Source of the DNA: a virus
Taxonomy: Duplodnaviria > Caudoviricetes
Reading direction: 5' to 3' (one strand)
Length of the DNA stretch: 26,623 nt
IMG/VR virus record: IMGVR_UViG_3300037601_000048
Coordinates: 1 to 26,623 of that record
The position numbers were made by a program, and so were the translations under genes. The first letter of the stretch is position 1, and every line of letters begins with the position of its first letter. The notes under the pieces are model-generated. The model made no database searches. It worked only from the letters and a program-made list of their open reading frames with translations, and had not been told where the DNA came from. Shown piece by piece: positions 3-22,195 of the stretch.

Positions 3-725
3 AAAGGTTTAGATTATTCTTTTAACATAGAAGATATTTTAACTGCAATAAATAATCATGCTTTTTTTGATACTATAGAAAAACCTAATCAAACACATTA
101 TAAGTATATAACTTATGATATTTCATGTAATGAAGATTTTGCATTACATAGGAAATATTATGATTGGAAAAAAATATTTACATTTTTTAAAGATCATCCT
201 ATAGCAATGGGTACATTAGCTACAAAAATTATACCTTATGATTTTTTAGAATTTAACCCTGAAAAAAAAATTAGAATTAGGTTTAGTCTTATGCCTCAAA
301 AAATATCTTCTATATTAGAACCTAATACACCTGATATAATTGATAGAATAAAAGCCATTGATAAATTTATTGATGCTGGATATGATGTTCATATAAATTT
401 TAGTCCTGTAGTTATTTATAAAGATTGGTTAAAAGATTATAAAGATCTTTTTAAATTAGTTAATGATAATGTTGAAAATAAAGATATAGTTTTATCTGAA
501 GTTATATTTTTAACACATAATAAAGAAAAACATAAATACAATATTATAAATAATATAAAAGGAGAAGATTTACTTTGGAAACCTGATATTCAATCAGATA
601 AATTAAATTCTAATGGTAATGATGCTATAAGATATACTCCTAGTATCAAAAAACAATTTATTAATCAATGGGTAGAATTACATAATGAAATTATACCTTG
701 GAATAAAATAAGATATGTATTTTAA
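3..725 (+). CDS. Spore photoproduct lyase (SplB)-family radical SAM protein, 5'-truncated by the window edge
   Basis: The frame of ORF 207..725 stays open back to base 3 (KGLDYSFNIEDIL...KPNQTH...YDISCNEDF...). Motifs ATK, RIRFSLMP, AGYDVHINFSPV, EVIFLTHN, LLWKP and IRY match SplB-like proteins. The CxxxCxxC motif would lie upstream of the window. Confidence 0.8.
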   Translation, partial: KGLDYSFNIEDILTAINNHAFFDTIEKPNQTHYKYITYDISCNEDFALHRKYYDWKKIFTFFKDHPIAMGTLATKIIPYDFLEFNPEKKIRIRFSLMPQKISSILEPNTPDIIDRIKAIDKFIDAGYDVHINFSPVVIYKDWLKDYKDLFKLVNDNVENKDIVLSEVIFLTHNKEKHKYNIINNIKGEDLLWKPDIQSDKLNSNGNDAIRYTPSIKKQFINQWVELHNEIIPWNKIRYVF

Positions 726-1044
726 ATATAGAAATAATAATTATTTTGATGAAAATACTTTATATATTTTTTATCATGAATCAATAGATAGATTGTTAGT
801 TTCAAAAGTACATTTTTATAATGGAAATTGGCATACAAATGAAGGATTACAATATAAGTGTACGTCTGTAAAATGTATAAAAGCTAATAATTTATTAAAA
901 AGAAAAATTATATTAAATTTAAATGATACAATTATTAAAGGTAAAATTATAAATTTTCTTCCTGAAAAAAATTGTATAGGTGTTCATTGGGATAATATAT
1001 TATTTTATTATTGGCAAAACATAAACAAAGTAAAAATAATATAA
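715..1044 (+). CDS. Hypothetical protein
   Basis: 109-aa ORF overlapping the previous stop; its TAA overlaps the next ATG (TAATG at 1042-1046). Confidence 0.65.
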   Translation: MYFKYRNNNYFDENTLYIFYHESIDRLLVSKVHFYNGNWHTNEGLQYKCTSVKCIKANNLLKRKIILNLNDTIIKGKIINFLPEKNCIGVHWDNILFYYWQNINKVKII

Positions 1045-1367
1045 TGCAGAATGGTAAAAGATATAATGAAGGGAAATTAAAATGGAGTTTAGTTTCATGG
1101 AAAGCATTAGAACCAATGGTAAGAGTGCTTATGTTTGGTGCAGAAAAATATGATAGTTGGAATTGGAGCAAAGGTTTAAAATATACAGAAATTTGTGAAA
1201 GTTTACAACGTCATTTAAATGCATTTATACAAGGAGAAGATAATGATCCTGAAAGTAAATTATCACATGTAGGACATATATTATGTAATGCAATGTTCCT
1301 ATCATATATGTTTCTTTTTAAAAAAGACATGGATGATAGATATAATGATCCAAATTTAGTATTATGA
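1044..1367 (+). CDS. dATP/dGTP diphosphohydrolase domain protein (DUF5664-like)
   Basis: Motifs RYNEGKLKWSLV, VLMFGAEKY, NWSKG, SLQRHL, DPESKLSHVGHILCNAMFL. Start placed at the coupled ATG 1044 rather than TTG 1011. Confidence 0.85.
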   Translation: MQNGKRYNEGKLKWSLVSWKALEPMVRVLMFGAEKYDSWNWSKGLKYTEICESLQRHLNAFIQGEDNDPESKLSHVGHILCNAMFLSYMFLFKKDMDDRYNDPNLVL

Positions 1368-3768: not shown

Positions 3769-4359
3769 ATGAGAAATTATTCATGTTATTATTATAGATA
3801 TGATAGAAAAAACAAAAAATTAATATCAAATAAGAATACTGCTTGTTGGTCATATTTAGATCATTTTTCTGAAAATTATTGGGCAAAAGAATTTAATACG
3901 GTATTTAAAAGAAATCCTGATATAATTTATGTAAGTAATTATATAGAAAAAGATCTTGATGAAAAATATAGAAAACAATTGATTTATATTTTAAATAAAA
4001 TAACACCATGTAGAGAAATAGTATATAATGGTGTAAATTATTTAGCTGTTAGATTAATACATCATGATTGGTATGATAATAATTTAGTTATATTAAATTG
4101 GATAAGAGGTTTATGGCACGAACAAGCTACATTAGATGTAAATAAGTTTTACACTATGATAATGGAATATAAAGATGAAGATGACCCATTGTATTTTCTT
4201 ATGAATTGTAATAAAAAATGTTATAATTTAAGTAAATATGGAAATTTTAATCATAGTAATGTTGGAGAAGGTATAATTCCTAAAAATAAAGAACAATTAT
4301 TTTTAAGAAAAGAACCGTATCTCAGTCATTTTATGAAAAGACAAGAAATTATTAATTAA
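3769..4359 (+). CDS. Hypothetical protein
   Basis: 196-aa ORF, 4 nt after the thyA stop, with typical AT-rich codon usage. Confidence 0.75.
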   Translation: MRNYSCYYYRYDRKNKKLISNKNTACWSYLDHFSENYWAKEFNTVFKRNPDIIYVSNYIEKDLDEKYRKQLIYILNKITPCREIVYNGVNYLAVRLIHHDWYDNNLVILNWIRGLWHEQATLDVNKFYTMIMEYKDEDDPLYFLMNCNKKCYNLSKYGNFNHSNVGEGIIPKNKEQLFLRKEPYLSHFMKRQEIIN

Positions 4360-5813: not shown

Positions 5814-5845
5814 AAAGGGGGATTAATTTCCCCCTTTTTTTATTT
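5814..5845 (+). terminator. Rho-independent terminator
   Basis: Stem AAAGGGGGA (5814-5822)/TCCCCCTTT (5829-5837) running into a T tract. Confidence 0.85.
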
Positions 5846-5850
5846 AACAA

Positions 5851-6888
5851 ATGATAGATCTAAATAAAAAACTAGTAAGTAAAGAAGGTCTTTTAGAATA
5901 TATAAATGAATTAGATGTTTATCAATATTATACAGGTAAAGAAGTAACATTATCAGGTAATATGATTTCACCAATTAGAGCTGAAAAAACACCATCTTTT
6001 GGTTATTTTGTAAGTAAAACTGGTGAAAAAGAAATATTATTTAATGATTTTAAAATAGGTGGTGGTGATTTTGTTAAATTTGTTCAATTAAAATTTGGAT
6101 TAAATTATTTTGAAGCATTATCTAAAATTGCTATAGATATGAACATAGATGATCATTTTATAGTAAAAGATATGAAAAAATCAAATAAAGTGTATGATCC
6201 AAATAAATACCAAACAAATAGACAAAAATTATTATCAACATCTAATAGTGTTAAAATAGGAAGAAAAGTAAGAGAATGGAAATTATATGATCTTAACTTT
6301 TGGTATCAATTTGGTATAACAAAAGATGTTTTAAATTTATATAATGTAGAACCTATTTCTTATTTATTTTTAAATAATGTACCTATTGTTCCTGAAAAAT
6401 ATTCATATTGTTTTCCAGAATTTAAAGATGATACTGTTACATATAAAATTTATCAACCATATAGTGAAGATTATAAATGGTTAACAAATCATGATGCTTC
6501 TGTATGGCAAGGATGGAGACAATTACCTGAAAAAAATGAATTTTTAATAATAACATCTTCTTTAAAAGATGCAATGTCAATTGTAAGTACAACAAATTAC
6601 CCAGCTATAGCTTTACAAAATGAAGGAATTAAACCTAAAGAATCTGTAGTAAAAGAATTACATAATAGATTTGATTGTATTTATTTATTATATGATAATG
6701 ATTTTGATAAAGAAGTTAATTGGGGTAGAGAATTTGGTAAAGATATATCAGAAAAAAATAGATTTTTTCAAATTGAAATACCTGAAAAATATAATTCTAA
6801 AGATTATAGTGATTTAATTAAAAATATAGGTGTAAAAAATGCATCTGAACTATTAGTTCATTTGCAACAAAATTATATGCCTTTTTAA
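5851..6888 (+). CDS. DNA primase (DnaG/TOPRIM, phage type)
   Basis: Remnant N-terminal zinc-finger region SPIRAEKTPSF...DF...GD; KIYQPY; TOPRIM IITSSLKDAM; YDND; SKDYSD. Confidence 0.85.
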   Translation: MIDLNKKLVSKEGLLEYINELDVYQYYTGKEVTLSGNMISPIRAEKTPSFGYFVSKTGEKEILFNDFKIGGGDFVKFVQLKFGLNYFEALSKIAIDMNIDDHFIVKDMKKSNKVYDPNKYQTNRQKLLSTSNSVKIGRKVREWKLYDLNFWYQFGITKDVLNLYNVEPISYLFLNNVPIVPEKYSYCFPEFKDDTVTYKIYQPYSEDYKWLTNHDASVWQGWRQLPEKNEFLIITSSLKDAMSIVSTTNYPAIALQNEGIKPKESVVKELHNRFDCIYLLYDNDFDKEVNWGREFGKDISEKNRFFQIEIPEKYNSKDYSDLIKNIGVKNASELLVHLQQNYMPF

Positions 6889-6903: not shown

Positions 6904-7299
6904 ATGAAAGTAGCAGTTTATGGTACATTAAGAAAAGGAGAATCAAATCATGCTTTATTATCAAAAGCTAAATATGTAGGATTATTTGAAACAAATCCTG
7001 AATATAATTTTTTTAGTGTAAATGATGCTTTTCCAGCAATTACTCAAAAAGGAAACACTTCTATAATTATGGAAGTATATGAAGTATCTCATGATATTTT
7101 ACAAGGTGTTGATAATTTAGAAGGTTATGATAAAGGTAATAAAGAAAATAATCTATACAATAGAATAGAAATTGATACACCTTTTGGTAAAGCATATACT
7201 TATGTATATAATAAAAATGTAAAACATCTTCCTGTTATAAATGGAAATGATTGGAAAGAATATATAAGTATTAGAAGAGTAGTAAGAAGTATTAATTAA
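6904..7299 (+). CDS. Gamma-glutamylcyclotransferase (GGCT/AIG2-like)
   Basis: Motifs VAVYGTLRKG, FPA, EVYEV, DNLEGY, YNR, AYTYVY. Confidence 0.92.
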   Translation: MKVAVYGTLRKGESNHALLSKAKYVGLFETNPEYNFFSVNDAFPAITQKGNTSIIMEVYEVSHDILQGVDNLEGYDKGNKENNLYNRIEIDTPFGKAYTYVYNKNVKHLPVINGNDWKEYISIRRVVRSIN

Positions 7300-7311
7300 T
7301 AAAAAATAAAA

Positions 7312-8139
7312 ATGTCTTATACAAATTTTAGACCAAGAATTAGAAGTAGACATCCTTCTCATAATTCTTTAAGAAAAAACAAATTATTACCTTTATTACC
7401 TTTTAAATCAGTAATTAGATTTGGCTCTACTACTGATATGAAAGATACTATTACAAATGGAGGTAATAGAATTGAAATAAATACAATTGATTCAGTTAAA
7501 AATAGTAGTAATAAATTACTAATGAAAACTTGCTTTACTGAATTTAATATAAAAACAGCAGATTGGTGGAAAGCAGTAGATGTAAATGATATAAATGATT
7601 TACCTTATCCAGTAGTTACCAAACATTTATTTGGTAGTAGAGGAACAGGTAATAAAAAGCATGATAATGCAGAATCATTATCAAAATGGCTTGAAAATCA
7701 TGAAGATTTATCTAAGTACATTATAGAAAAATTCTATAATTACACTAGAGAATATAGATTACATGTTACTAAAAATGGATGTTTTTACACATGTAGAAAA
7801 ATGTTAAAAAGAGATACTCCAGAAGAGAAAAAATGGTATAGAAATGACGATAATTGTGTTTGGATTCTAGAAGAAAATGAAAATTTTGATAAGCCTGTAA
7901 ATTGGGTAAAAATTGAAGAAGAATCCGTTAAAGCATTAAAATCTGTAGGTTTAGATGTAGGAGCTGTAGATTTAAGAATTCAATCTGCTACTAATAAAAA
8001 AGGAGAAAAAAGAGAAGATCCTGATTTTATTATTGTAGAAATAAATTCAGCACCTAGTTTTGGAGATATTACACTAAATAAATATATAGAAGAATTACCT
8101 AAAATTTTATTAAATAAATATAATGAAAAAGAAGAATAG
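7312..8139 (+). CDS. ATP-grasp peptide ligase (RimK/YheCD-like, phiEco32 type)
   Basis: Motifs YPVVTK..GSRGTG, IEKF...EYRLHV, GLDVGAVD, IVEINSAP. Confidence 0.85.
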   Translation: MSYTNFRPRIRSRHPSHNSLRKNKLLPLLPFKSVIRFGSTTDMKDTITNGGNRIEINTIDSVKNSSNKLLMKTCFTEFNIKTADWWKAVDVNDINDLPYPVVTKHLFGSRGTGNKKHDNAESLSKWLENHEDLSKYIIEKFYNYTREYRLHVTKNGCFYTCRKMLKRDTPEEKKWYRNDDNCVWILEENENFDKPVNWVKIEEESVKALKSVGLDVGAVDLRIQSATNKKGEKREDPDFIIVEINSAPSFGDITLNKYIEELPKILLNKYNEKEE

Positions 8140-8896
8140 TATTACCATATTACATGATAATTATATTGACAATAATTATAAAGATTTTTTTACAAATTGT
8201 TTTCTTAATACTAATGTAGAATTTACAAGTTTGTCTGAATTTTTTAAAATGACAAAATCAGAAGATCCTGATAGAGAATATCATAATAGATTAGTAGAAA
8301 CAAAAAACTATGATATTGTATTATTTACAGGAGGAGCAGATGTAAACCCTTCTTTATATGATGATAAAATTGGACAATATACTCATATAAATAAAGAAAG
8401 AGATCAAGAAGAAATAAATCTTTATAATTTTTTACCTAAAAAAACATTAAAAATAGGTATTTGTAGAGGTTCACAATTTCTTACTGTAATGTCTAATGGT
8501 AAATTAATACAACATGTAGAAGGTCATGGGAGTTCTCATAAGATTGAATTTAAAACTAAAAAAGAAACTTATGTAGGAGGACAAGGGGTACAATTAATGG
8601 ATGAAATTAAACCATTAGTAATAACATCAACACATCATCAAATGATGTATCCTTATAATTTACGTGAAAATAATTATGAAATTATAGCTTGGTCTGAAAA
8701 ATTTTTAAGTAATGTTTATTTAAATGGAAATAATGAACAAATAAAAGTTCCTGAAAACTTTGTAGAACCTGAAATAGTTTTTTATAAAAACACCAATAGT
8801 TTGTGTATCCAAGGTCATCCAGAATATGGTAATTGTCCTGGTCAAACTGTTAAAATGATTTATGATTTAATTAAAGAAAAGTTATATGAAAAATAG
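8123..8896 (+). CDS. Class I glutamine amidotransferase (peptidase C26 / gamma-glutamyl hydrolase-like)
   Basis: FTGGADVNP, RD..E, GICRGSQ (catalytic Cys), STHHQ, QGHPE (His-Glu of the triad). Confidence 0.92.
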   Translation: MKKKNSITILHDNYIDNNYKDFFTNCFLNTNVEFTSLSEFFKMTKSEDPDREYHNRLVETKNYDIVLFTGGADVNPSLYDDKIGQYTHINKERDQEEINLYNFLPKKTLKIGICRGSQFLTVMSNGKLIQHVEGHGSSHKIEFKTKKETYVGGQGVQLMDEIKPLVITSTHHQMMYPYNLRENNYEIIAWSEKFLSNVYLNGNNEQIKVPENFVEPEIVFYKNTNSLCIQGHPEYGNCPGQTVKMIYDLIKEKLYEK

Positions 8897-9713
8897 AATA
8901 ACAAATTTTACAGTAGGTGCTGATCCAGAATTATTTTTAGAACAAAATGGTAAAATAGTATCTTCTGAAGGTATTATAGGTGGAAGTAAACATAAACCTA
9001 AACGAATTGATGGTTATGGTCGTTATGTTCAAGAAGATAACGTAATGGTTGAATTTAATATTCCTCCTTGTCAATCAAAAGAAGATTTTGTAAATGAAAT
9101 TAATGCTGTAAAAGATTGGTTACATGCATATGTTTCATTAAAAGGGTATAATTTAAATTATTCTTCATCTGCATTTTTAGATGAAAAATATTTAACAACA
9201 CCTCAAGCATTAGAGTTTGGTTGTGAACCAGATTATAATGTATATTTAAAAGATATAAATCAACCGCCTGATTCTACTAAAAATTTAAGATCATGTGGTG
9301 GTCATATCCATATTGGTTATAATGATCCAGATCAAGAAACTACTGAACATATAGTTTATGCAATGGATATTATGTTAGGTCTTGATTCTATTATTCTTGA
9401 TAATGATAGATTAAGAAGAACTATGTATGGTAAAGCAGGTTGTTTTAGATTCAAAGATTATGGTTTAGAATATAGAACTTTATCTAATTTTTGGATTAAA
9501 AATGATACATTGATTACTTGGGTATATGAAAGAGTTGAAAAAGCTATTAATTTAGTAAATTCAGGTCTTATGCCTAGTATCTTAAATTTATATGAAAATA
9601 ATATTAGAAAAGCTATTGATTCAGGTGATATTGAATTTTCAATAGAAGTTTATAATAGTATTTTAGAATTTATTGAAGTAAATAAAAAAGAAAAAATAAC
9701 AAAAACAGTATAA
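8886..9713 (+). CDS. Phage phiEco32-like COOH-NH2 ligase type 2
   Basis: Motifs GADPELF, QEDNVMVEFNI, FGCEPD, RSCGGHIHIG, RRTMYGKAG.FR, EYRTLSNFW. Confidence 0.9.
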   Translation: MKNRITNFTVGADPELFLEQNGKIVSSEGIIGGSKHKPKRIDGYGRYVQEDNVMVEFNIPPCQSKEDFVNEINAVKDWLHAYVSLKGYNLNYSSSAFLDEKYLTTPQALEFGCEPDYNVYLKDINQPPDSTKNLRSCGGHIHIGYNDPDQETTEHIVYAMDIMLGLDSIILDNDRLRRTMYGKAGCFRFKDYGLEYRTLSNFWIKNDTLITWVYERVEKAINLVNSGLMPSILNLYENNIRKAIDSGDIEFSIEVYNSILEFIEVNKKEKITKTV

Positions 9714-9716
9714 TAA

Positions 9717-11621
9717 ATGTGTGGAATTTTTGCATGGGCTGGTAGAAACCCAGCTACGTTTAATCCTTATAAATTTAATACTTTAGGGATAATGAATGAA
9801 GTAAGAGGTAAACACTCTTGCGGAGTAACTATTGATCAAGAAATTTATATTGGAGTAGATAATAATAAAGTATATAGAGACTTTGTAGCAAGTTCAGATC
9901 TACCTGTTCCTAAAAAATTTCCAAATGTTATAGGTCATACTAGACATGCTACTGGAGGAGCTCATAATATACATAATGCTCATCCTTTTGGTTTTGGAAA
10001 TTCTAAAAATAAGAATGATTATAAATTCATAGGTGTTCATAATGGAAGTTTAGTAAATCATGAAAACCTTGCTAAAAAAAGAAACATTCCGATAACAGTT
10101 AACTATACAAAACCTAATGATAATACTAAATATCATAGGGTGAAAATTGATAGTGAAATATTATTGGAATCTATTTATAAAGACGAAAATTTTAAAGTTT
10201 TAAGTGAGTATTCTGGTGCAGCAGCTTTAGTTTTTTATAAAACTAATGATCCTAATACAATTTATTGTTATCATGGTAAAAGTAAAATGTATAGACATGA
10301 TAATGAAATTGTAGAGGAAAGACCTTTATTCTATTATCAAGAAAGTAAATATTCAGTATATATTTCATCCATTAAAGAAAGTTTACAAATTATTGCAGGT
10401 GGAGCTGATAAAGAACACCTCATTAAATCTTTTGATTATAATACAGTGTATATTATAAAAAATGGAGATGTTAAATCTGCTGAAAAAATAAAGATAAGTA
10501 GAACAAAAAGATCTCAAAAATCAAATGATGATTATTATTTTGAAAATGAGACTAAAACTATTAAAAAGAATAATAGTGTTAGTAATTATCCTAAAAATAA
10601 TGATTATTATGATCAGATGGGTTATGAATTTGAAATGGAAGAAGCTTATTCTGGTTTAGGGTGTGGTGTAGCAAGATCTAGTCATATAAACTTAAATGAT
10701 GATGATTGTACACATAAAGTTATAAATATTTATAAAGAAGACGCATCATCTAAAATTAGAAATAGTGGAAAAGTGTATTATGAAAAATTAAGATATAAAT
10801 GTAAAAATAAATTAATAACAGGTTGTTATATATTTATTAAAAATTACGGATATTATTTTTTAGGTAATACAATTGAAAGTTCTAATCAAAATCTTGAAAT
10901 TTTATTTAATAAAAGATTCTTTAATGGTGATTTTATAACAAAAGAACAAATTAAAACTTTAATGAAATCTGATTCAAAAGAAAAAGAAGATTTTATTAAA
11001 AATTCTTTTGTACCATTTAAAAGAAGTGAAAATGATGGTGACTTGTTGCATTATATTTTTGAAGGAGTTAGAGTTAAAAATTATTTAGATTATTTAGCTT
11101 GTATAGATTCTAAAAAATCAGGAGCACCATTTGATTATATTTCATTATCAGCTTGTTCTTTATATCCAATTTGTGAAAATAAAGATTACAAAACTGTAAT
11201 GGAACAAAATATATTATTAGATAATAAACCTGCAAATGGTTGTTTTGTACCATTAGGTTCTTCAAAAATATATACTTTTGAGAATGGTAAATTATTAAGA
11301 AGTGAAAATATTATAGAAGATTCAAGTCAAACTGTAATACCTCTTAATGATTTAAACGAAGCATTAGATAAAGTAGAAGAAGAAGTTAAAGAAGAATTTA
11401 GTAATACTACAGATGAATCAGATGAGGTAAAGGAAACATGCGATTTATTAGAAAATAAATTAGATGAAATTTTTAAAGAACCTTTTTCTAAATTTCCTAT
11501 TTATATAAAAGAACTGGAAAAAAATTATTCACAATATGAAAGAGGTAAAAGAGCAATTTCTATATTATCTGATTTTGTAGATGATGTACATGAAACTATT
11601 AATATAGATATTAATCCTTAA
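9717..11621 (+). CDS. Class II (Ntn) glutamine amidotransferase with long C-terminal extension
   Basis: N-terminal MCGIF (nucleophile Cys), RGKHSCG, GHTRHAT, NAHPF, HNG, DSE, RPL. Confidence 0.92.
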   Translation: MCGIFAWAGRNPATFNPYKFNTLGIMNEVRGKHSCGVTIDQEIYIGVDNNKVYRDFVASSDLPVPKKFPNVIGHTRHATGGAHNIHNAHPFGFGNSKNKNDYKFIGVHNGSLVNHENLAKKRNIPITVNYTKPNDNTKYHRVKIDSEILLESIYKDENFKVLSEYSGAAALVFYKTNDPNTIYCYHGKSKMYRHDNEIVEERPLFYYQESKYSVYISSIKESLQIIAGGADKEHLIKSFDYNTVYIIKNGDVKSAEKIKISRTKRSQKSNDDYYFENETKTIKKNNSVSNYPKNNDYYDQMGYEFEMEEAYSGLGCGVARSSHINLNDDDCTHKVINIYKEDASSKIRNSGKVYYEKLRYKCKNKLITGCYIFIKNYGYYFLGNTIESSNQNLEILFNKRFFNGDFITKEQIKTLMKSDSKEKEDFIKNSFVPFKRSENDGDLLHYIFEGVRVKNYLDYLACIDSKKSGAPFDYISLSACSLYPICENKDYKTVMEQNILLDNKPANGCFVPLGSSKIYTFENGKLLRSENIIEDSSQTVIPLNDLNEALDKVEEEVKEEFSNTTDESDEVKETCDLLENKLDEIFKEPFSKFPIYIKELEKNYSQYERGKRAISILSDFVDDVHETINIDINP

Positions 11622-11632
11622 AAAATATTTTA

Positions 11633-13306
11633 ATGAGTAAAAAAGATGATTTAGTAACAGCAGTAGATGGTACATTACAACCTTCTTCTGATTGTAGAAA
11701 AATTAAAGGTGTTTATTATTTAATAGGAGATATTAATATAGAAAATTCAGGACATTGTTATTATATACCAGAAAGAGAAAAGTATTTTCGTTATGATACT
11801 GGTTATATTGCATACGACCATAATTTAAAACGTTATAATTTAAAATCAATGATAAATATTGAAAATGGTGTAGTAGGTATAAATGGTCAAGAAGTTATTT
11901 TTGGCTCTTTTTCTACTCCTGTATTTTATGAACATATTTACCTTAATTATAAAGGTAATTTATATCCTTGTTTAAACAGGGAAATATTTAAAGATTCTTT
12001 TTGGTATAAAGAAGATTTAGGTGAAGGTATTTATTATCATAGGCAAAATAGAAAAGTTTCTAATTTTTTTATACCTAAACCTTGTAATAATTCTTATAAA
12101 AATTCATTACAATATGATTGTAAAAATCAAATAAAGAATAGTGTTGATATTTATAATAAATTAAATGAAAACTTATTAGAAAATACACCTTATTCTAAAG
12201 TATTATCATATGGTGATTTTATAAAAGATTATACATTTGGTTTTGAATTTGAAACAATTAAAGGATCTATCCCTAAAGATATTAGTAACAAATTAGGACT
12301 AATTCCTGTAAGAGATGGAAGTATTAGTGGTTTAGAATATGTAACAATACCTTTATCTGGTAAAAAAGGTTTATGTAGTCTTGTTGATAGTGTAAATGAA
12401 TTAAAAAAAAGAACAGTTTATGATAGAAGTTGTTCTATTCATTTACATATAGGTGGTATTCCTAGAACAGAAGAATATATATTAGCTTTATTTAAAACAT
12501 TATGTCTTATTGAAGATAAAATGTTTGATTTATTTCCTATTTACAAAAAAGTAAATTACGGATTAAAACGTAAAGCTTATACTAAACCTTTTCCAATGAA
12601 TCAAACATTATGGTTAATGGATCCAAAAATTAATAAAGATAATATTAAATCTAATTTTAATATTTTATTTAATTATTTATCAATGGGTCATAACTATAGT
12701 GAATATGATTATGATTTAAATAATGTTAAAAGTCATCCATCTGATCCAGGTGGAAATGGTAAATGGCATATTAAAACCAGATATCATTGGGTTAATTTAA
12801 TACCATTATTATTTGGTAATAAGCAAACTATAGAATTTAGATTACATACTCCTACTTATGATATAAATAAAATTATGTCATATTTAATTATATGTGTATC
12901 TATTTTAGATTTTGTAGCAAAAAATCAAAATGCTTTATTATCTAATTTCAAAAACTTTGTAAATTTAAGTTTATTTGATGTTGTATATAATAATATTTCA
13001 TATTCTAGAGATTTACAACTTGACATTAGTACTTATCTTAATAACAGAAAAAATTATATATATAATTGTATAAAAAAAGGAGATTTAGAAGCAGATGAAG
13101 ATAATTTAGAATATAATTTTGATAAAACTATAGATTGGTCTTTTAATAAAAATGAAAAGATAGAAAATAAACCTTTAAGAAAAAAAGCAGCGCCTTTACA
13201 TTTTTATAATGGTGCTGGAAATATGGATATTCATGAGCAACTGTTGAATGCAATACAAGAGGATATACCTGAAGATGTATTTTTAGAACCCGATCCTAAT
13301 TTTTAA
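11633..13306 (+). CDS. Putative amidoligase (glutamine-synthetase-like COOH-NH2 ligase) with N-terminal extension
   Basis: Motifs FGFEFET, RDGSI, LEYVT, CSIHLH, RYHWVN, TIEFRLH. Confidence 0.88.
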   Translation: MSKKDDLVTAVDGTLQPSSDCRKIKGVYYLIGDINIENSGHCYYIPEREKYFRYDTGYIAYDHNLKRYNLKSMINIENGVVGINGQEVIFGSFSTPVFYEHIYLNYKGNLYPCLNREIFKDSFWYKEDLGEGIYYHRQNRKVSNFFIPKPCNNSYKNSLQYDCKNQIKNSVDIYNKLNENLLENTPYSKVLSYGDFIKDYTFGFEFETIKGSIPKDISNKLGLIPVRDGSISGLEYVTIPLSGKKGLCSLVDSVNELKKRTVYDRSCSIHLHIGGIPRTEEYILALFKTLCLIEDKMFDLFPIYKKVNYGLKRKAYTKPFPMNQTLWLMDPKINKDNIKSNFNILFNYLSMGHNYSEYDYDLNNVKSHPSDPGGNGKWHIKTRYHWVNLIPLLFGNKQTIEFRLHTPTYDINKIMSYLIICVSILDFVAKNQNALLSNFKNFVNLSLFDVVYNNISYSRDLQLDISTYLNNRKNYIYNCIKKGDLEADEDNLEYNFDKTIDWSFNKNEKIENKPLRKKAAPLHFYNGAGNMDIHEQLLNAIQEDIPEDVFLEPDPNF

Positions 13307-13317
13307 AAATTTAATTT

Positions 13318-14013
13318 ATGACTATTAGTAATGTATCTATTAACGTAGATTTTAATAAAAAATTTGGAAGATGGATGAATGTATTAAAAGAAGATATTTT
13401 TGAAAAAGAATTTTCTAGTCTTTTATTTGATATAGAAGAAGAATACAATAACTATATAGTATATCCTAATAAAGATGATATATTCAAAGCATTCCAATTA
13501 TGTGATCCTGATAATTTAAAAGTTGTAATTGTAGGTGATGAGCCTTTTTGCAATGGTAGATCTAATGGGTTAGCTTATGGTTCTAAAAATGACTTTGATA
13601 AAATGCATCCAGAAACTGAGTTAATTTTAAATTGTGTAGAAAAACAATTTTATGAAGGTTTTAATTTAACTAAAGATCCGACATTAAATGAATGGGCTCA
13701 ACAAGGTGTATTATTATTAAATAAATCTTTGACAGTAAGAGATAATTATCCAAAATCTCATGAACAATTATGGGATGATATGATGATTAATATTATACAA
13801 TCTATAGATTATTATTATCAAGGTATAATTTTTTTATTTTTAGGAGTACATGCTAAAAAACTTAGAAAACATATTAGTGAAGAATATAATTTAGCATTGG
13901 AGTATATTGCTCCTAAAACATCTATTGAAATGAATCTTAAATGGGATTGTCCTCATTTTAAACATATTAATAAATTGTTAACTAAAAATAAAAAAGTAGA
14001 AATAATTTGGTAA
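13318..14013 (+). CDS. Uracil-DNA glycosylase family 1-like protein with altered catalytic motifs
   Basis: YP..DIFKAF, LKVVIVGDEPF, GLAY, WAQQGVLLLN..LTV, SH..W, FLFLG and HF..IN match the UNG fold, but GQDPY and HPSP are changed. Confidence 0.85.
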   Translation: MTISNVSINVDFNKKFGRWMNVLKEDIFEKEFSSLLFDIEEEYNNYIVYPNKDDIFKAFQLCDPDNLKVVIVGDEPFCNGRSNGLAYGSKNDFDKMHPETELILNCVEKQFYEGFNLTKDPTLNEWAQQGVLLLNKSLTVRDNYPKSHEQLWDDMMINIIQSIDYYYQGIIFLFLGVHAKKLRKHISEEYNLALEYIAPKTSIEMNLKWDCPHFKHINKLLTKNKKVEIIW

Positions 14014-16430: not shown

Positions 16431-16823
16431 ATGATTGAATTGAATAAATTAGCATCTCAAATATATGAAGGAAATGCAGAAAAAGGATTTTGGGATGGAT
16501 CGTCAAGAGACGTAAAAGATAAAAATGAAGTAGCATTAAAATTAATGCTAATAGTATCTGAATTAGGTGAAGCAATGGAAGCTCACCGTAAAGGTAAATT
16601 TGCAAATACAGAAATGTATAAACATGATATGGAAGTATTTCCAACTAGTTTTACTGATAATTTTGTAGATAGAATAAAAGATAGCTTTGAAGATGAAATT
16701 GCAGATACTATAATTAGATTATTTGATATGGCTGGAGGTTTAAGTATAGATTTAGAATTCCACATTGAAAATAAATTAAGATATAATGCAACTAGACAAA
16801 AATTACACGGTAAAAAATATTAG
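16431..16823 (+). CDS. MazG-like NTP pyrophosphohydrolase
   Basis: Motifs KGFW, LIVSELGEAMEAHRK, EDEIADTIIRLFD, KLRYN..R...HGKKY. Confidence 0.88.
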   Translation: MIELNKLASQIYEGNAEKGFWDGSSRDVKDKNEVALKLMLIVSELGEAMEAHRKGKFANTEMYKHDMEVFPTSFTDNFVDRIKDSFEDEIADTIIRLFDMAGGLSIDLEFHIENKLRYNATRQKLHGKKY

Positions 16824-20020: not shown

Positions 20021-21170
20021 TAAAAAAGGAACAGTAGAAATAATAACAGGATTAGGTAAAACTTTTATCTCTTTACATGCATTATGTACTATGCCTAAAA
20101 ATATACCTCATCTTTTTTTAGCAGAAACTACAGGTAGAGAAAAAGATTTAAAAAAAGATTTAAAAAAATATAAAAAAATATTTGGTATAGATATTGAAAA
20201 AGAATATGATTTAAGATTTTATTGTTATCAAACTGTCTATAAATGGGAAGGTAAAAAAGTAGGATTAGTTATTGCAGATGAAATTCATGATGCTTTAACT
20301 CCAAAATATAGTCAATTCTTTTATAATAATAACTATGATGCTATTATAGGTTTATCAGCTACTATTAATACTAAAACAATATATGAAATAGATGATGAAA
20401 AAATTACTAAAGGAGATATATTAAATGAAATAGCTCCTATATGTTTTAGTTATAAAGTAGATGAAGCTAAAGAAGATGGTACTATGAGGGATCTAAATGT
20501 TTATATTATTCAACATAAATTAGATTCTAAAAATAAAATAATTAAATCTGGAAATAAAAAGAAAATTTTTTATCAAACAGAAGAGGCTGCATATAATTAT
20601 TGGGATAATAGACATAAAAAATCTTGGTTTATTCAAGACCAAGAAAAGAAAAATTTACAGATAAGAATTACTTCTACTAAAAGAAGTAATATATTATATA
20701 ATTTAGAATCTAAAATACCTATTGTAAAAACATTATTAAAAAATATTAAAGGTAAAAGTATTATATTTGGTAATAGTATAGATTCTTTATTAAAAGTAAC
20801 ACCTTATGTTATTAGTTCTAGAAATAACGATGATGTAAATAATTCTATTCGTGAAAAATTTGAAAAAAATAAAATTAAAGAAATAGCCAGTTTTAAAAAA
20901 TTAAAACAAGGAGCTAATTTAAATGAATTAGATAATTGTATTATAATGTCTTATTATAGTACAGATAAAGATTTTATTCAAAGAATAGGTAGATTAAGAA
21001 ATAATGGTAAAATTGGAAGTGTATTTGTAATATTAACAATGGGTACACAAGAAGAACAATGGTTTGTTAAAATATTTGAAAATATAAATAATATGAATAT
21101 GATTTATTGTCCTGATGTAGATTTTGCTATTAAAAAATATAAAGAAAATGATTACAGAAAAACAAAGTAG
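19962..21170 (+). CDS. Superfamily 2 (DEAH) helicase
   Basis: Motifs TGLGKT, ADEIH, GLSAT, LKQGAN, QRIGRLR. The start could be 19971. Confidence 0.92.
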   Translation: MEEMRHHVQQKALKCWLANDKKGTVEIITGLGKTFISLHALCTMPKNIPHLFLAETTGREKDLKKDLKKYKKIFGIDIEKEYDLRFYCYQTVYKWEGKKVGLVIADEIHDALTPKYSQFFYNNNYDAIIGLSATINTKTIYEIDDEKITKGDILNEIAPICFSYKVDEAKEDGTMRDLNVYIIQHKLDSKNKIIKSGNKKKIFYQTEEAAYNYWDNRHKKSWFIQDQEKKNLQIRITSTKRSNILYNLESKIPIVKTLLKNIKGKSIIFGNSIDSLLKVTPYVISSRNNDDVNNSIREKFEKNKIKEIASFKKLKQGANLNELDNCIIMSYYSTDKDFIQRIGRLRNNGKIGSVFVILTMGTQEEQWFVKIFENINNMNMIYCPDVDFAIKKYKENDYRKTK

Positions 21171-21957
21171 AAATAAATTAGGAGAAGGTAGAAATTTTGG
21201 ATTTGGATTTTCTATATTAGAAAAAATTAAAAATTCAGAAGATTTTAAAACTTATACAGCTTTTACAGCATGTAAAGATTATTTTAATGATTTAGTTTAT
21301 GTAGAAAATACTAAAAAATATTTATCTAAAATATTTGGATTTAAACATGAATTAAAAAATATATTTGAAAATCATAAAGAAAGTCATTTTTATTTAGGTA
21401 TATGTCCTTTACATAAACTTAATAGTGGTGAATATAATAAATATGATCAATTAGAAAAATTATTAAAAGAAAATATTAACAATATTATTAAAAATATTAA
21501 TAATTTTGAAAAATTAATTCAAAAAGATAAATCATTCACTGAATTTTTTAAAAATGATGAAATAGAACATTATGGTAAGAAAAAAACCTCTTTTGCTGTA
21601 ATAATTAAAGTTCCTAAATATTGGGTTGAACATCCTTCTTTATTTAGTTTATATTTATTATTAATAAGAATATATGGTTCTGTAACTGAAGAAAAAAGCA
21701 TTTTTGAATTAGAAACTAAAGATGTTTTTATAGAAGCAGATGGTTATTTTTTAAGAAAATTAAAAAAATTAGAATTAATAGTTGATGATTTTTCTAAAAT
21801 TTATGAATTTTATGATTATGATAAATTATATGTTACTAAAAATCAAAATGCATCAGGAGTTCATAGTTATGGTATAATGTCATGGTTAGAAAATTTAGAA
21901 AAAAATTTAAAAGAAAATGAAAAAACTAAAGGAAAAAGTATTAAAAAGGCTGCATAA
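21148..21957 (+). CDS. Hypothetical protein
   Basis: ORF 21124..21957 with probable start at ATG 21148; contains FTACKDYFND, W...PSLFSLYLLLIR, HSYGI. Confidence 0.75.
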   Translation: MITEKQSRNKLGEGRNFGFGFSILEKIKNSEDFKTYTAFTACKDYFNDLVYVENTKKYLSKIFGFKHELKNIFENHKESHFYLGICPLHKLNSGEYNKYDQLEKLLKENINNIIKNINNFEKLIQKDKSFTEFFKNDEIEHYGKKKTSFAVIIKVPKYWVEHPSLFSLYLLLIRIYGSVTEEKSIFELETKDVFIEADGYFLRKLKKLELIVDDFSKIYEFYDYDKLYVTKNQNASGVHSYGIMSWLENLEKNLKENEKTKGKSIKKAA

Positions 21958-22195
21958 AAACTCACATGAATTTAATCTTTTAAAAACAGCAGAAGAAGCA
22001 AGTGAATTATCTGCTGTACTTTTACAAAGAGTTAATAAAGGACCTTTAAAAGTATCTGATAAAAAGATTATTGAAGAAATTGGAGATTTAAAATTAAGAC
22101 TTTGGTATTTAGAAGCCTATTATGGTAAAGAATCTGTTAAAAATAGAATTATTAATAAATTTATACAAATAAATAAATATGCTAATAGTAGGTGA
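21917..22195 (+). CDS. MazG-like pyrophosphohydrolase (short)
   Basis: Motifs KTAEEASEL and IIEEIGDL (EExxE...EExxD pattern). Confidence 0.72.
   Translation: MKKLKEKVLKRLHKNSHEFNLLKTAEEASELSAVLLQRVNKGPLKVSDKKIIEEIGDLKLRLWYLEAYYGKESVKNRIINKFIQINKYANSR

What the first reader, a model, noticed from the sequence alone, without database searches (positions are those of the whole stretch)
6904..13306. Complete six-gene phage peptide/amide-ligase operon of unknown product
Seen: GGCT, ATP-grasp ligase, class I GATase, COOH-NH2 ligase type 2, Ntn GATase and a second amidoligase are contiguous (gaps of 12 nt or less, or overlaps), with catalytic motifs apparently intact, between primase and UDG. Established: a similar set is known bioinformatically from phiEco32-like and LUZ24/PaP3-like phages of Proteobacteria, and to my knowledge its product is not determined. 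Inference: three ATP-dependent amide-bond formers, two glutamine-hydrolysing enzymes and a gamma-glutamyl remover form a write/erase pathway. It may make a gamma-glutamyl/isopeptide metabolite or tag on the host cell wall, proteins or nucleotides, for example for superinfection exclusion or anti-defence. A full copy in a probable Bacteroidota phage replication module is the strongest candidate for an uncharacterised system here.
Basis: partly seen in the sequence, partly recalled or inferred. Interest (0 to 1): 0.82.

Follow-up and report, generated by a model that had tools for sequence, protein, structure and literature searches.

The report
Phage amide-ligase cassette with displaced pseudo-ligase
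This crAss-like phage carries an intact six-gene set of enzymes predicted to make and cut glutamate-linked amide bonds, a set recognised in hundreds of phages since 2009 but with no product found in the papers searched; it likely decorates a host cell-envelope precursor early in infection, and a seventh, distant gene predicted to have a remodelled ligase fold likely belongs to it.

Summary
In detail: six tightly packed genes (GGACT-type cyclotransferase, ATP-grasp, C26/class I amidotransferase, COOH-NH2 ligase, Ntn amidotransferase, amidoligase-2) with catalytic residues intact. It is not a new system. It is the phiEco32/LUZ24/RIO-1 'peptidoglycan-modification' cassette. Cultured Crassvirales phage phi14:2 has five of the six genes at the same primase-UDG site, 62 of 74 related viral loci have all six, and this scan has noted the cassette in 36 earlier findings on other DNA. 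No experimental product turned up in my searches.

Two additions. (1) ORF 21148-21957 sits beside cassette genes in other phages. Its confident model matches the GS/GCL/PafA/Dop fold at middling Z, lacks the ligase motifs and keeps an invariant Glu, Cys and His: a likely optional seventh, Cys-dependent member. (2) In 42 of 73 relatives the Ntn enzyme carries a hydrophobic leader before its catalytic Cys, pointing to the inner membrane; this copy lacks it.

Best mechanism (0.35): a gamma-glutamyl build-and-trim relay that amidates or peptidylates a lipid-linked cell-wall precursor. Rivals: protein tagging (0.25), soluble metabolite (0.25), nucleotide/DNA (0.07). New member of a known kind; interest 0.42.

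The parts
6904..7299 (+). Gamma-glutamylamine cyclotransferase (GGACT/AIG2/YtfP type), 131 aa
   Evidence: PF06094 1e-19; phrog_2520; YtfP 1xhs 1e-9; Y6 G7 E73 conserved
7312..8139 (+). ATP-grasp ligase of the phage RimK-like group, 275 aa
   Evidence: phrog_2599 6e-34; RimK family 4e-8, below cut-off; 57.5% to phi14:2 g038
8123..8896 (+). Class I glutamine amidotransferase of the C26 (gamma-glutamyl hydrolase) type, 257 aa
   Evidence: PF07722 1e-14; best NCBIfam hits are gamma-glutamyl-CDP-amidate hydrolase and PuuD, both below cut-off; C114 H232 E234
8886..9713 (+). phiEco32-like COOH-NH2 ligase type 2, 275 aa
   Evidence: PF14395; phrog_3815 1e-77; homologues in 314 phage records
9717..11621 (+). 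Ntn (class II) amidotransferase with a long C-terminal extension, 634 aa; starts Met-Cys with no hydrophobic leader
   Evidence: PF13522; C2 R30 H74 R76 N109 G110 D145; leader survey
11633..13306 (+). Amidoligase-2: beta-hairpin N-terminal domain (about 1-140) plus GS/GCL-fold domain (about 180-490), 557 aa
   Evidence: PF12224; model pLDDT 91; Foldseek GS/GshF E 3e-4; Z up to 10.7
21148..21957 (+). Displaced accessory gene, 269 aa (ORF finder start 21124): predicted degenerate GS/GCL/PafA/Dop fold, invariant E13, C42, H239
   Evidence: 1,698 representatives; conservation; model pLDDT 92.7; fold match; beside cassette genes in other phages
3769..4359 (+). Possible second accessory gene (Cys...Arg...His pattern); weak lead only
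   Evidence: Profile links to positional orthologues (E 1e-4) and to cassette-internal unknowns (E 0.002); no significant link to ORF 21148
5851..6888 (+). DNA primase, conserved upstream flank
   Evidence: phrog_12622; present in 71 of 74 loci
13318..14013 (+). Uracil-DNA glycosylase, downstream flank
   Evidence: PF03167; present in 52 of 74 loci
5814..5837 (+). Terminator-like hairpin before primase; none found within or at the ends of the six genes

Best explanation
The six genes likely form an early-expressed gamma-glutamyl build-and-trim relay that is predicted to amidate, and add a short glutamate-linked peptide to, a lipid-linked cell-wall precursor at the cytoplasmic face of the host inner membrane. 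Shown here: enzyme families, intact active-site residues, synteny, and a hydrophobic leader on the Ntn enzyme in over half of relatives. Inferred steps: (1) the Ntn enzyme, once its Cys is N-terminal, releases ammonia from glutamine and amidoligase-2 uses ATP to amidate a carboxylate; (2) the COOH-NH2 ligase gamma-glutamylates an amine; (3) the ATP-grasp enzyme adds a further amino acid; (4) the C26 hydrolase and the cyclotransferase remove gamma-glutamyl groups as deprotection or reversal; (5) where present, ORF 21148 would act as an ATP-independent, Cys-dependent transamidase or isopeptidase. The likely benefit is altered peptidoglycan that hinders entry of competing phages or changes lysis timing. 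That the cassette makes gamma-glutamyl/amide bonds is about 0.9 likely; the acceptor named here about 0.35.
For: Families and residues. Ntn and COOH-NH2 ligase genes accompany amidoligase-2 in 74 of 74 loci; Ntn and amidoligase-2 are adjacent in 36 of 38 earlier loci (the two exceptions are a truncated ORF call in phiEco32 and a 265-nt gap). A hydrophobic leader of about 24-43 aa (best 17-residue hydropathy 1.5-3.0), usually followed by Lys/Arg, precedes the catalytic Cys in 42 of 73 parsed relatives and in phi14:2, with no start codon at the Cys, consistent with a cytoplasm-facing membrane anchor. The replicative module of phi14:2 is early (bioRxiv 2020.03.07.982082, passages; that g037-g041 fall in it is my reading), and the PSA-HP1 cassette is expressed immediately (PMC7082346, passage). 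The cell-wall hypothesis is the published one (PMC5498523, PMC10580990, PMC11945000, passages). Recalled precedent, from no call: AsnB/LtsA/AsnH Ntn enzymes and the D-Asp ATP-grasp ligase modify stem peptides; butirosin BtrJ/BtrG and PuuA/PuuD use gamma-glutamyl protection.
Against: No substrate was tested. This copy has no leader, and none of the six proteins has a strongly hydrophobic segment (19-residue maximum 1.77); the leader is gained or lost at least 13 times on a quick tree, so it is dispensable. The ATP-grasp scores better against RimK (4e-8) than D-Ala-D-Ala ligase (4e-4), and ORF 21148's top folds are the protein-tagging enzymes Dop and PafA, tied within 1 Z with GS. An amidoligase plus GATase pair is reported in a virus assigned computationally to peptidoglycan-free Poseidoniales archaea (PMC11706807, passages). 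ORF 21148 is absent from many cassette genomes.
Confidence: 0.35

Rival explanations
1. Reversible protein tagging: the ligases attach a glutamyl or short-peptide isopeptide tag to host (possibly membrane or defence) proteins, and the hydrolases and the Dop-like accessory remove or transfer it.
For: RimK-family best hit; Dop and PafA top the fold list for ORF 21148; lineage-specific extra domains on amidoligase-2 and the Ntn enzyme could recognise protein targets; GGACT-type enzymes act on gamma-glutamyl-lysine (title of a reference seen).
Against: All RimK/LysX hits are far below cut-off; no Pup-like or LysW-like small carrier gene lies in the six-gene block; a shared fold shows no function.
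Confidence: 0.25
2. Soluble metabolite: a glutathione-like or gamma-glutamyl-polyamine product made by a GCL-type ligase plus ATP-grasp and trimmed by C26/GGACT, which alters redox state, polyamine pools or immune signalling.
For: The fold set includes GshA, GshF, YbdK and GmaS; the C26 enzyme's best hits are small-molecule gamma-glutamyl hydrolases; the archaeal-virus report fits a wall-independent product.
Against: The membrane-type leader in 42 of 73 relatives is unexplained for a soluble pathway; no exporter or tailoring genes in the block.
Confidence: 0.25
3. Nucleotide or phage DNA base modification, suggested by the position among replication genes.
For: Lies between primase and UDG in 71 and 52 of 74 loci; nucleotide-sanitising genes are nearby.
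Against: DNA of the cassette-bearing phage tf was cut by RsaI, HpaI, EcoRV, SmaI and HaeIII and copied by Taq and Klenow (PMC3517423, passages); no glycosyltransferase or base-modifying partner in the block; the membrane leader.
Confidence: 0.07

Closest known systems
phiEco32 gp77-gp88 / LUZ24-PaP3-tf / RIO-1 / PSA-HP1 phage amidoligase ('peptidoglycan modification') cassette (Iyer et al. 2009; Hardies et al. 2013; both seen only as cited in PMC5498523, PMC10580990, PMC11945000)
   Same: Same five core families (GGCT, ATP-grasp, COOH-NH2 ligase PF14395, Ntn GATase, amidoligase PF12224), beside primase in the early module; 25-35% identity to four phiEco32 proteins.
   Different: Different gene order; a C26 class I enzyme is present; amidoligase-2 has a beta-hairpin N-terminal domain; ORF 21148's family was not detected in phiEco32.
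Cellulophaga phage phi14:2 g037-g041 (Crassvirales, Steigviridae)
   Same: Same order at the same primase-UDG site; 34-58% identity for the five shared genes; 15 of 19 window proteins tested match phi14:2 in the same order.
   Different: phi14:2 lacks the class I enzyme at this site and ORF 21148's family, and its Ntn enzyme has the hydrophobic leader.
crAss-like phage cr108_1 gp028-gp034 and Leptolyngbya phage Lbo-JY46
   Same: cr108_1 has five of the six (no GGCT annotated) at the same site; JY46 has all six families plus an ORF 21148 homologue just downstream.
   Different: cr108_1 has two unknown paralogues inside the cassette; JY46 has three class I paralogues and a different order.
Dop/PafA, GS, GCL (carboxylate-amine ligase fold)
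   Same: Fold of amidoligase-2 (Z 8-10.7) and, more weakly, of ORF 21148 (Dop Z 6.3, rmsd 4.3, 185 aligned; PafA Z 5.7).
   Different: ORF 21148 has no ExE, HxH or ExR motif, keeps Glu/Cys/His instead, and shows no profile similarity to either cassette ligase.

Membership tests
phiEco32/LUZ24-type amidoligase cassette | COOH-NH2 ligase type 2 (PF14395) | tested here: met
   38.7 bits, cut-off 25
phiEco32/LUZ24-type amidoligase cassette | Amidoligase_2 (PF12224) with GS/GCL fold | tested here: met
phiEco32/LUZ24-type amidoligase cassette | ATP-grasp ligase, Ntn amidotransferase and GGCT in the same cluster | tested here: met
phiEco32/LUZ24-type amidoligase cassette | Position in the early/replication module of a tailed phage | tested here: met
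   between primase and UDG; expression not tested for this phage
phiEco32/LUZ24-type amidoligase cassette | Modifies peptidoglycan (the published hypothesis) | not testable with these tools
   no experimental paper found
Crassvirales (phi14:2-like) | Syntenic replication module | tested here: met
   15 of 19 proteins match phi14:2 in order
Crassvirales (phi14:2-like) | Terminase, capsid and virion RNA polymerase placement | not testable with these tools
   the record is a 26%-complete fragment
RimK family glutamate ligase | Score above TIGR00768 cut-off | tested here: not met
   33 bits against 143.4
Carboxylate-amine ligase fold (for ORF 21148) | GS/GCL/PafA domain fold | tested here: inconclusive
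   Top 13 rows and 19 of the top 28 are this family, over residues 15-240, but best Z is 6.3 and Foldseek finds nothing significant
Active ATP-dependent carboxylate-amine ligase (for ORF 21148) | ExE, HxH and ExR metal/nucleotide motifs | tested here: not met
   absent from the 144-row consensus
Dop depupylase (for ORF 21148) | Sequence similarity and a Pup-system neighbourhood | tested here: not met
   no PDB sequence match; 8% identity in the fold alignment; neighbours are a helicase and a MazG-like gene

The most novel reading that the evidence does not exclude
The cassette is a phage-only, membrane-targeted conjugation system that assembles a glutamyl peptide and hands it, through a previously undescribed Cys-dependent transamidase built on a dead ligase fold (ORF 21148 family, 1,698 representatives), onto a host membrane protein or lipid-linked precursor: a Pup/Dop-like write-transfer-erase chemistry used by phages against hosts or rival phages.
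Probability: 0.15. Interest if true: 0.85.

Novelty: new member of a known kind. Interest (0 to 1): 0.42.

Why it matters
The cassette is kept intact across podoviruses of Pseudomonas, E. coli and Vibrio and across crAss-like phages, yet I found no measured product. Solving it would define a widespread phage host-takeover chemistry. This copy is no better a test system than cultured phi14:2, LUZ24 or phiEco32. What it adds is two handles: an optional Cys/His protein on a predicted ligase fold, whose Cys mutant could trap an intermediate, and a membrane leader that tells experimenters to look in the inner-membrane fraction.

Tried and rejected
Iyer et al. 2009 could not be read; it and Hardies 2013 are known to me only from citing passages and recall. 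Complex prediction of amidoligase-2 (3-480) with the Ntn enzyme (1-520) gave no verdict. No RNA holder was listed among sequencing runs, so no reads were laid. Foldseek against PDB found nothing significant for ORF 21148; the ESM Atlas gave only unnamed clusters, an AGOG cluster at 0.93 that I did not pursue, and a poor model. No Pfam, PHROG or PDB sequence family for ORF 21148. The Ntn C-terminal extension gave no usable Atlas hit; the amidoligase N-terminal domain was not folded alone and is barely tested. Paralogy of ORF 3769, phiEco32 gp87/gp88 and cr108_1 gp029/gp030 with ORF 21148 is not supported by profile comparison (E 0.05-0.5, no better than unrelated controls). PF14395 missed the ligase in many genomes (11 of 26), so the test was repeated with my own alignment. 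An Ntn single-sequence locus scan found nothing. Promoter-like sites are at chance level (97 against 104 expected). A lipoprotein or signal-peptidase reading of the leader was considered and set aside: the residue before Cys is Asn in 15 of 42, and lipidation would block the nucleophile (reasoning from recalled rules). The seven GTDB matches to amidoligase-2 are binned metagenome contigs of unrelated taxa with the phage gene order, which I read as mis-binned phage DNA and not as hosts. The small 'PTxNCQ' accessory of relatives was not found in the window. bioRxiv supplements (phi14:2 per-gene timing tables) were not seen.
Full report
OBSERVATION. The window is a whole 26,623-base virus record estimated 26% complete. 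Six + strand ORFs fill 6904-13306 with gaps of 12, -17, -11, 3 and 11 nt. Pfam, PHROGs and NCBIfam assign them as a GGACT-type cyclotransferase, a phage RimK-like ATP-grasp enzyme, a C26 class I amidotransferase, a phiEco32-like COOH-NH2 ligase, an Ntn amidotransferase and amidoligase-2. The residues expected to be catalytic (roles recalled) are kept in at least 85% of 17-37 homologues per gene. The amidoligase-2 model (pLDDT 91) has a beta-hairpin N-terminal domain and a domain matching 18 GS/GCL/PafA chains at Z 8.1-10.7. Primase and UDG are packed just as tightly on either side, and no terminator-like site bounds the six genes, so they are part of a longer replication-module run.

CONTEXT AND SYNTENY. 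Fifteen of 19 window proteins tested match Cellulophaga phage phi14:2 (Crassvirales) in the same order at 27-58% identity. RefSeq annotates phi14:2 g037-g041 as GGCT, ATP-grasp, COOH.NH2 ligase, aminotransferase and amidoligase between primase and UDG. cr108_1 has five of the six there; phiEco32 and Lbo-JY46 have rearranged sets. The COOH-NH2 ligase has homologues in 314 of 50,697 phage records. An amidoligase-2 scan found 182 viral relatives and kept 79 loci. In the 74 with at least 7.5 kb upstream, the COOH-NH2 ligase and Ntn genes are present in 74, GGCT in 71, ATP-grasp in 70, class I in 65 and all six in 62. These loci include near-copies; the 83 Ntn sequences collapse to 59 clusters at 70% identity. 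A Bacteroidota host is inferred from phi14:2 only; the JY46 record names a cyanobacterial host, and no capsid or terminase gene is on the fragment.

LITERATURE. Passages in PMC5498523, PMC10580990 and PMC11945000 describe this set as a putative peptidoglycan-modification cassette against superinfection, citing Iyer et al. and Hardies et al. 2013, and treat the function as a hypothesis. PMC3890496 lists the genes without a function. PMC7082346 reports immediate expression in PSA-HP1; the phi14:2 preprint reports its whole replicative module as early. Nine searches ran; I read listings and selected passages, no whole paper, and saw no experimental product. The scan's own notes hold 36 earlier findings of this cassette on other DNA; they are unchecked notes and are not counted as evidence.

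A SEVENTH GENE. ORF 21148-21957 has no Pfam, PHROG or PDB sequence family. A profile built from its near relatives and JY46 found homologues directly after the ATP-grasp gene in three unrelated loci (E 5e-15, 4e-6, 3e-4 among 721 ORFs). The family has 1,698 representatives with invariant E13, C42 and H239 across 144 rows. Of 49 viral loci fetched with it, 10 have a cassette gene within 1.3 kb (8 abutting), 26 have cassette genes farther off in the flank, usually with the gene displaced after the SF2 helicase as here, and 13 show none in the flank. All 24 holder genomes tested also encode the COOH-NH2 ligase (25 of 25 searched, one a non-holder). The reverse does not hold: it is missing from phi14:2, phiEco32 and G001 and from 24 of 24 further cassette genomes, which I chose among loci without it in the flank, so that count is not a frequency. 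It is therefore optional. Its model (pLDDT 92.7) gives no Foldseek PDB match, but the wide structural search ranks GS/GCL/PafA/Dop chains in the top 13 rows and 19 of the top 28, the same 19 entries that head the list for amidoligase-2; best is Dop at Z 6.3, rmsd 4.3, 185 aligned. That Z is below the tool's caution level, so I put the fold at about 0.75. The ligase motifs are gone and there is no profile similarity to either ligase. Weak viral-structure hits at ranks 3 and 4 (E about 0.1) are cr108_1 proteins of 329 and 300 aa, the lengths of the two unknown genes inside its cassette; the mapping is by length only. ORF 3769 shows a similar Cys...Arg...His order but no significant link. Two searches of the scan's notes and one by sequence found no earlier report of this family.

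A MEMBRANE LEADER. In 42 of 73 parsed, distinct Ntn homologues (two fragments unparsed) the catalytic Cys follows a hydrophobic leader of about 24-43 aa with no start codon at the Cys; 31 start Met-Cys, 24 of them within 40 nt of the upstream stop, as in this window. phi14:2 has the leader. On a quick tree (the careful search did not finish) the state changes 22 times, at least 13 forced by well-supported branches. I infer an N-out anchor that places the enzyme at the inner membrane before self-cleavage; it is dispensable.

MECHANISM. The enzyme set has three ATP-dependent amide formers, one likely ammonia donor and two gamma-glutamyl removers, which fits build-and-trim chemistry (inference; butirosin, Puu and stem-peptide amidation precedents are recalled). 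The acceptor is undetermined. I rank a lipid-linked cell-wall precursor first (0.35) because of the leader, the tight Ntn-amidoligase pairing and precedent. Protein tagging (0.25) draws on the RimK and Dop/PafA resemblances. A soluble gamma-glutamyl metabolite (0.25) draws on the C26 and GCL resemblances and a report of an amidoligase-GATase pair in a virus assigned to archaea. DNA modification (0.07) is disfavoured because tf DNA is cut by five restriction enzymes.

VERDICT. Real, intact and conserved, but a new member of a cassette described since 2009 and already annotated in a cultured crAss-like phage. The open question is real; this copy does not make it more testable than existing cultured phages, but the accessory pseudo-ligase and the leader are useful new leads. 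Interest 0.42.

Noticed in passing
L069:5781-7607 and L070:4856-6730 (G007, G014): The COOH-NH2 ligase gene is split by roughly 1-kb insertions encoding LAGLIDADG endonucleases at two different sites, probably group I introns; amidoligase-2 is split by similar-sized insertions with an unassigned ORF in L064 and L069.
   Followed up: partly
window 3769-4359; L005:4816-5466, L061:6028-6615, L064:1146-1694, L066:5050-5601: Small divergent family just upstream of Sak4 with conserved Cys, Arg and His; weak profile links to unknown genes inside cassettes of other phages.
   Followed up: partly
L061:10827-11243, L062-L068, L003:5435-6940, L005:4515-4814: A 135-aa 'PTxNCQ' protein sits between ATP-grasp and class I genes in several relatives; no Pfam family; absent from this window.
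   Followed up: partly
L003:3757-7966 and L010:258-1139: NAD-salvage genes (nicotinate phosphoribosyltransferase, PRPP synthetase) lie next to cassette genes in JY46, and a PRPP-synthetase-like gene in one other phage.
   Followed up: no
L050, L051, L055, L058, L060: A second, different Met-Cys protein of 510-580 aa that looks like an Ntn enzyme follows amidoligase-2.
   Followed up: no
window 1011-1367, 1710-2213, 16431-16823, 21917-22195: Several nucleotide-sanitising enzymes: dATP/dGTP diphosphohydrolase, HD 5'-deoxynucleotidase and two MazG-like pyrophosphatases; no purZ on this fragment.
   Followed up: no
window 207-725: Spore photoproduct lyase-like protein (PF20903), cut by the record's start; a homologue follows UDG in L005.
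   Followed up: no
L075 and L078: Roughly 104-kb contigs with this phage gene order are binned into unrelated bacterial MAGs in GTDB.
   Followed up: no
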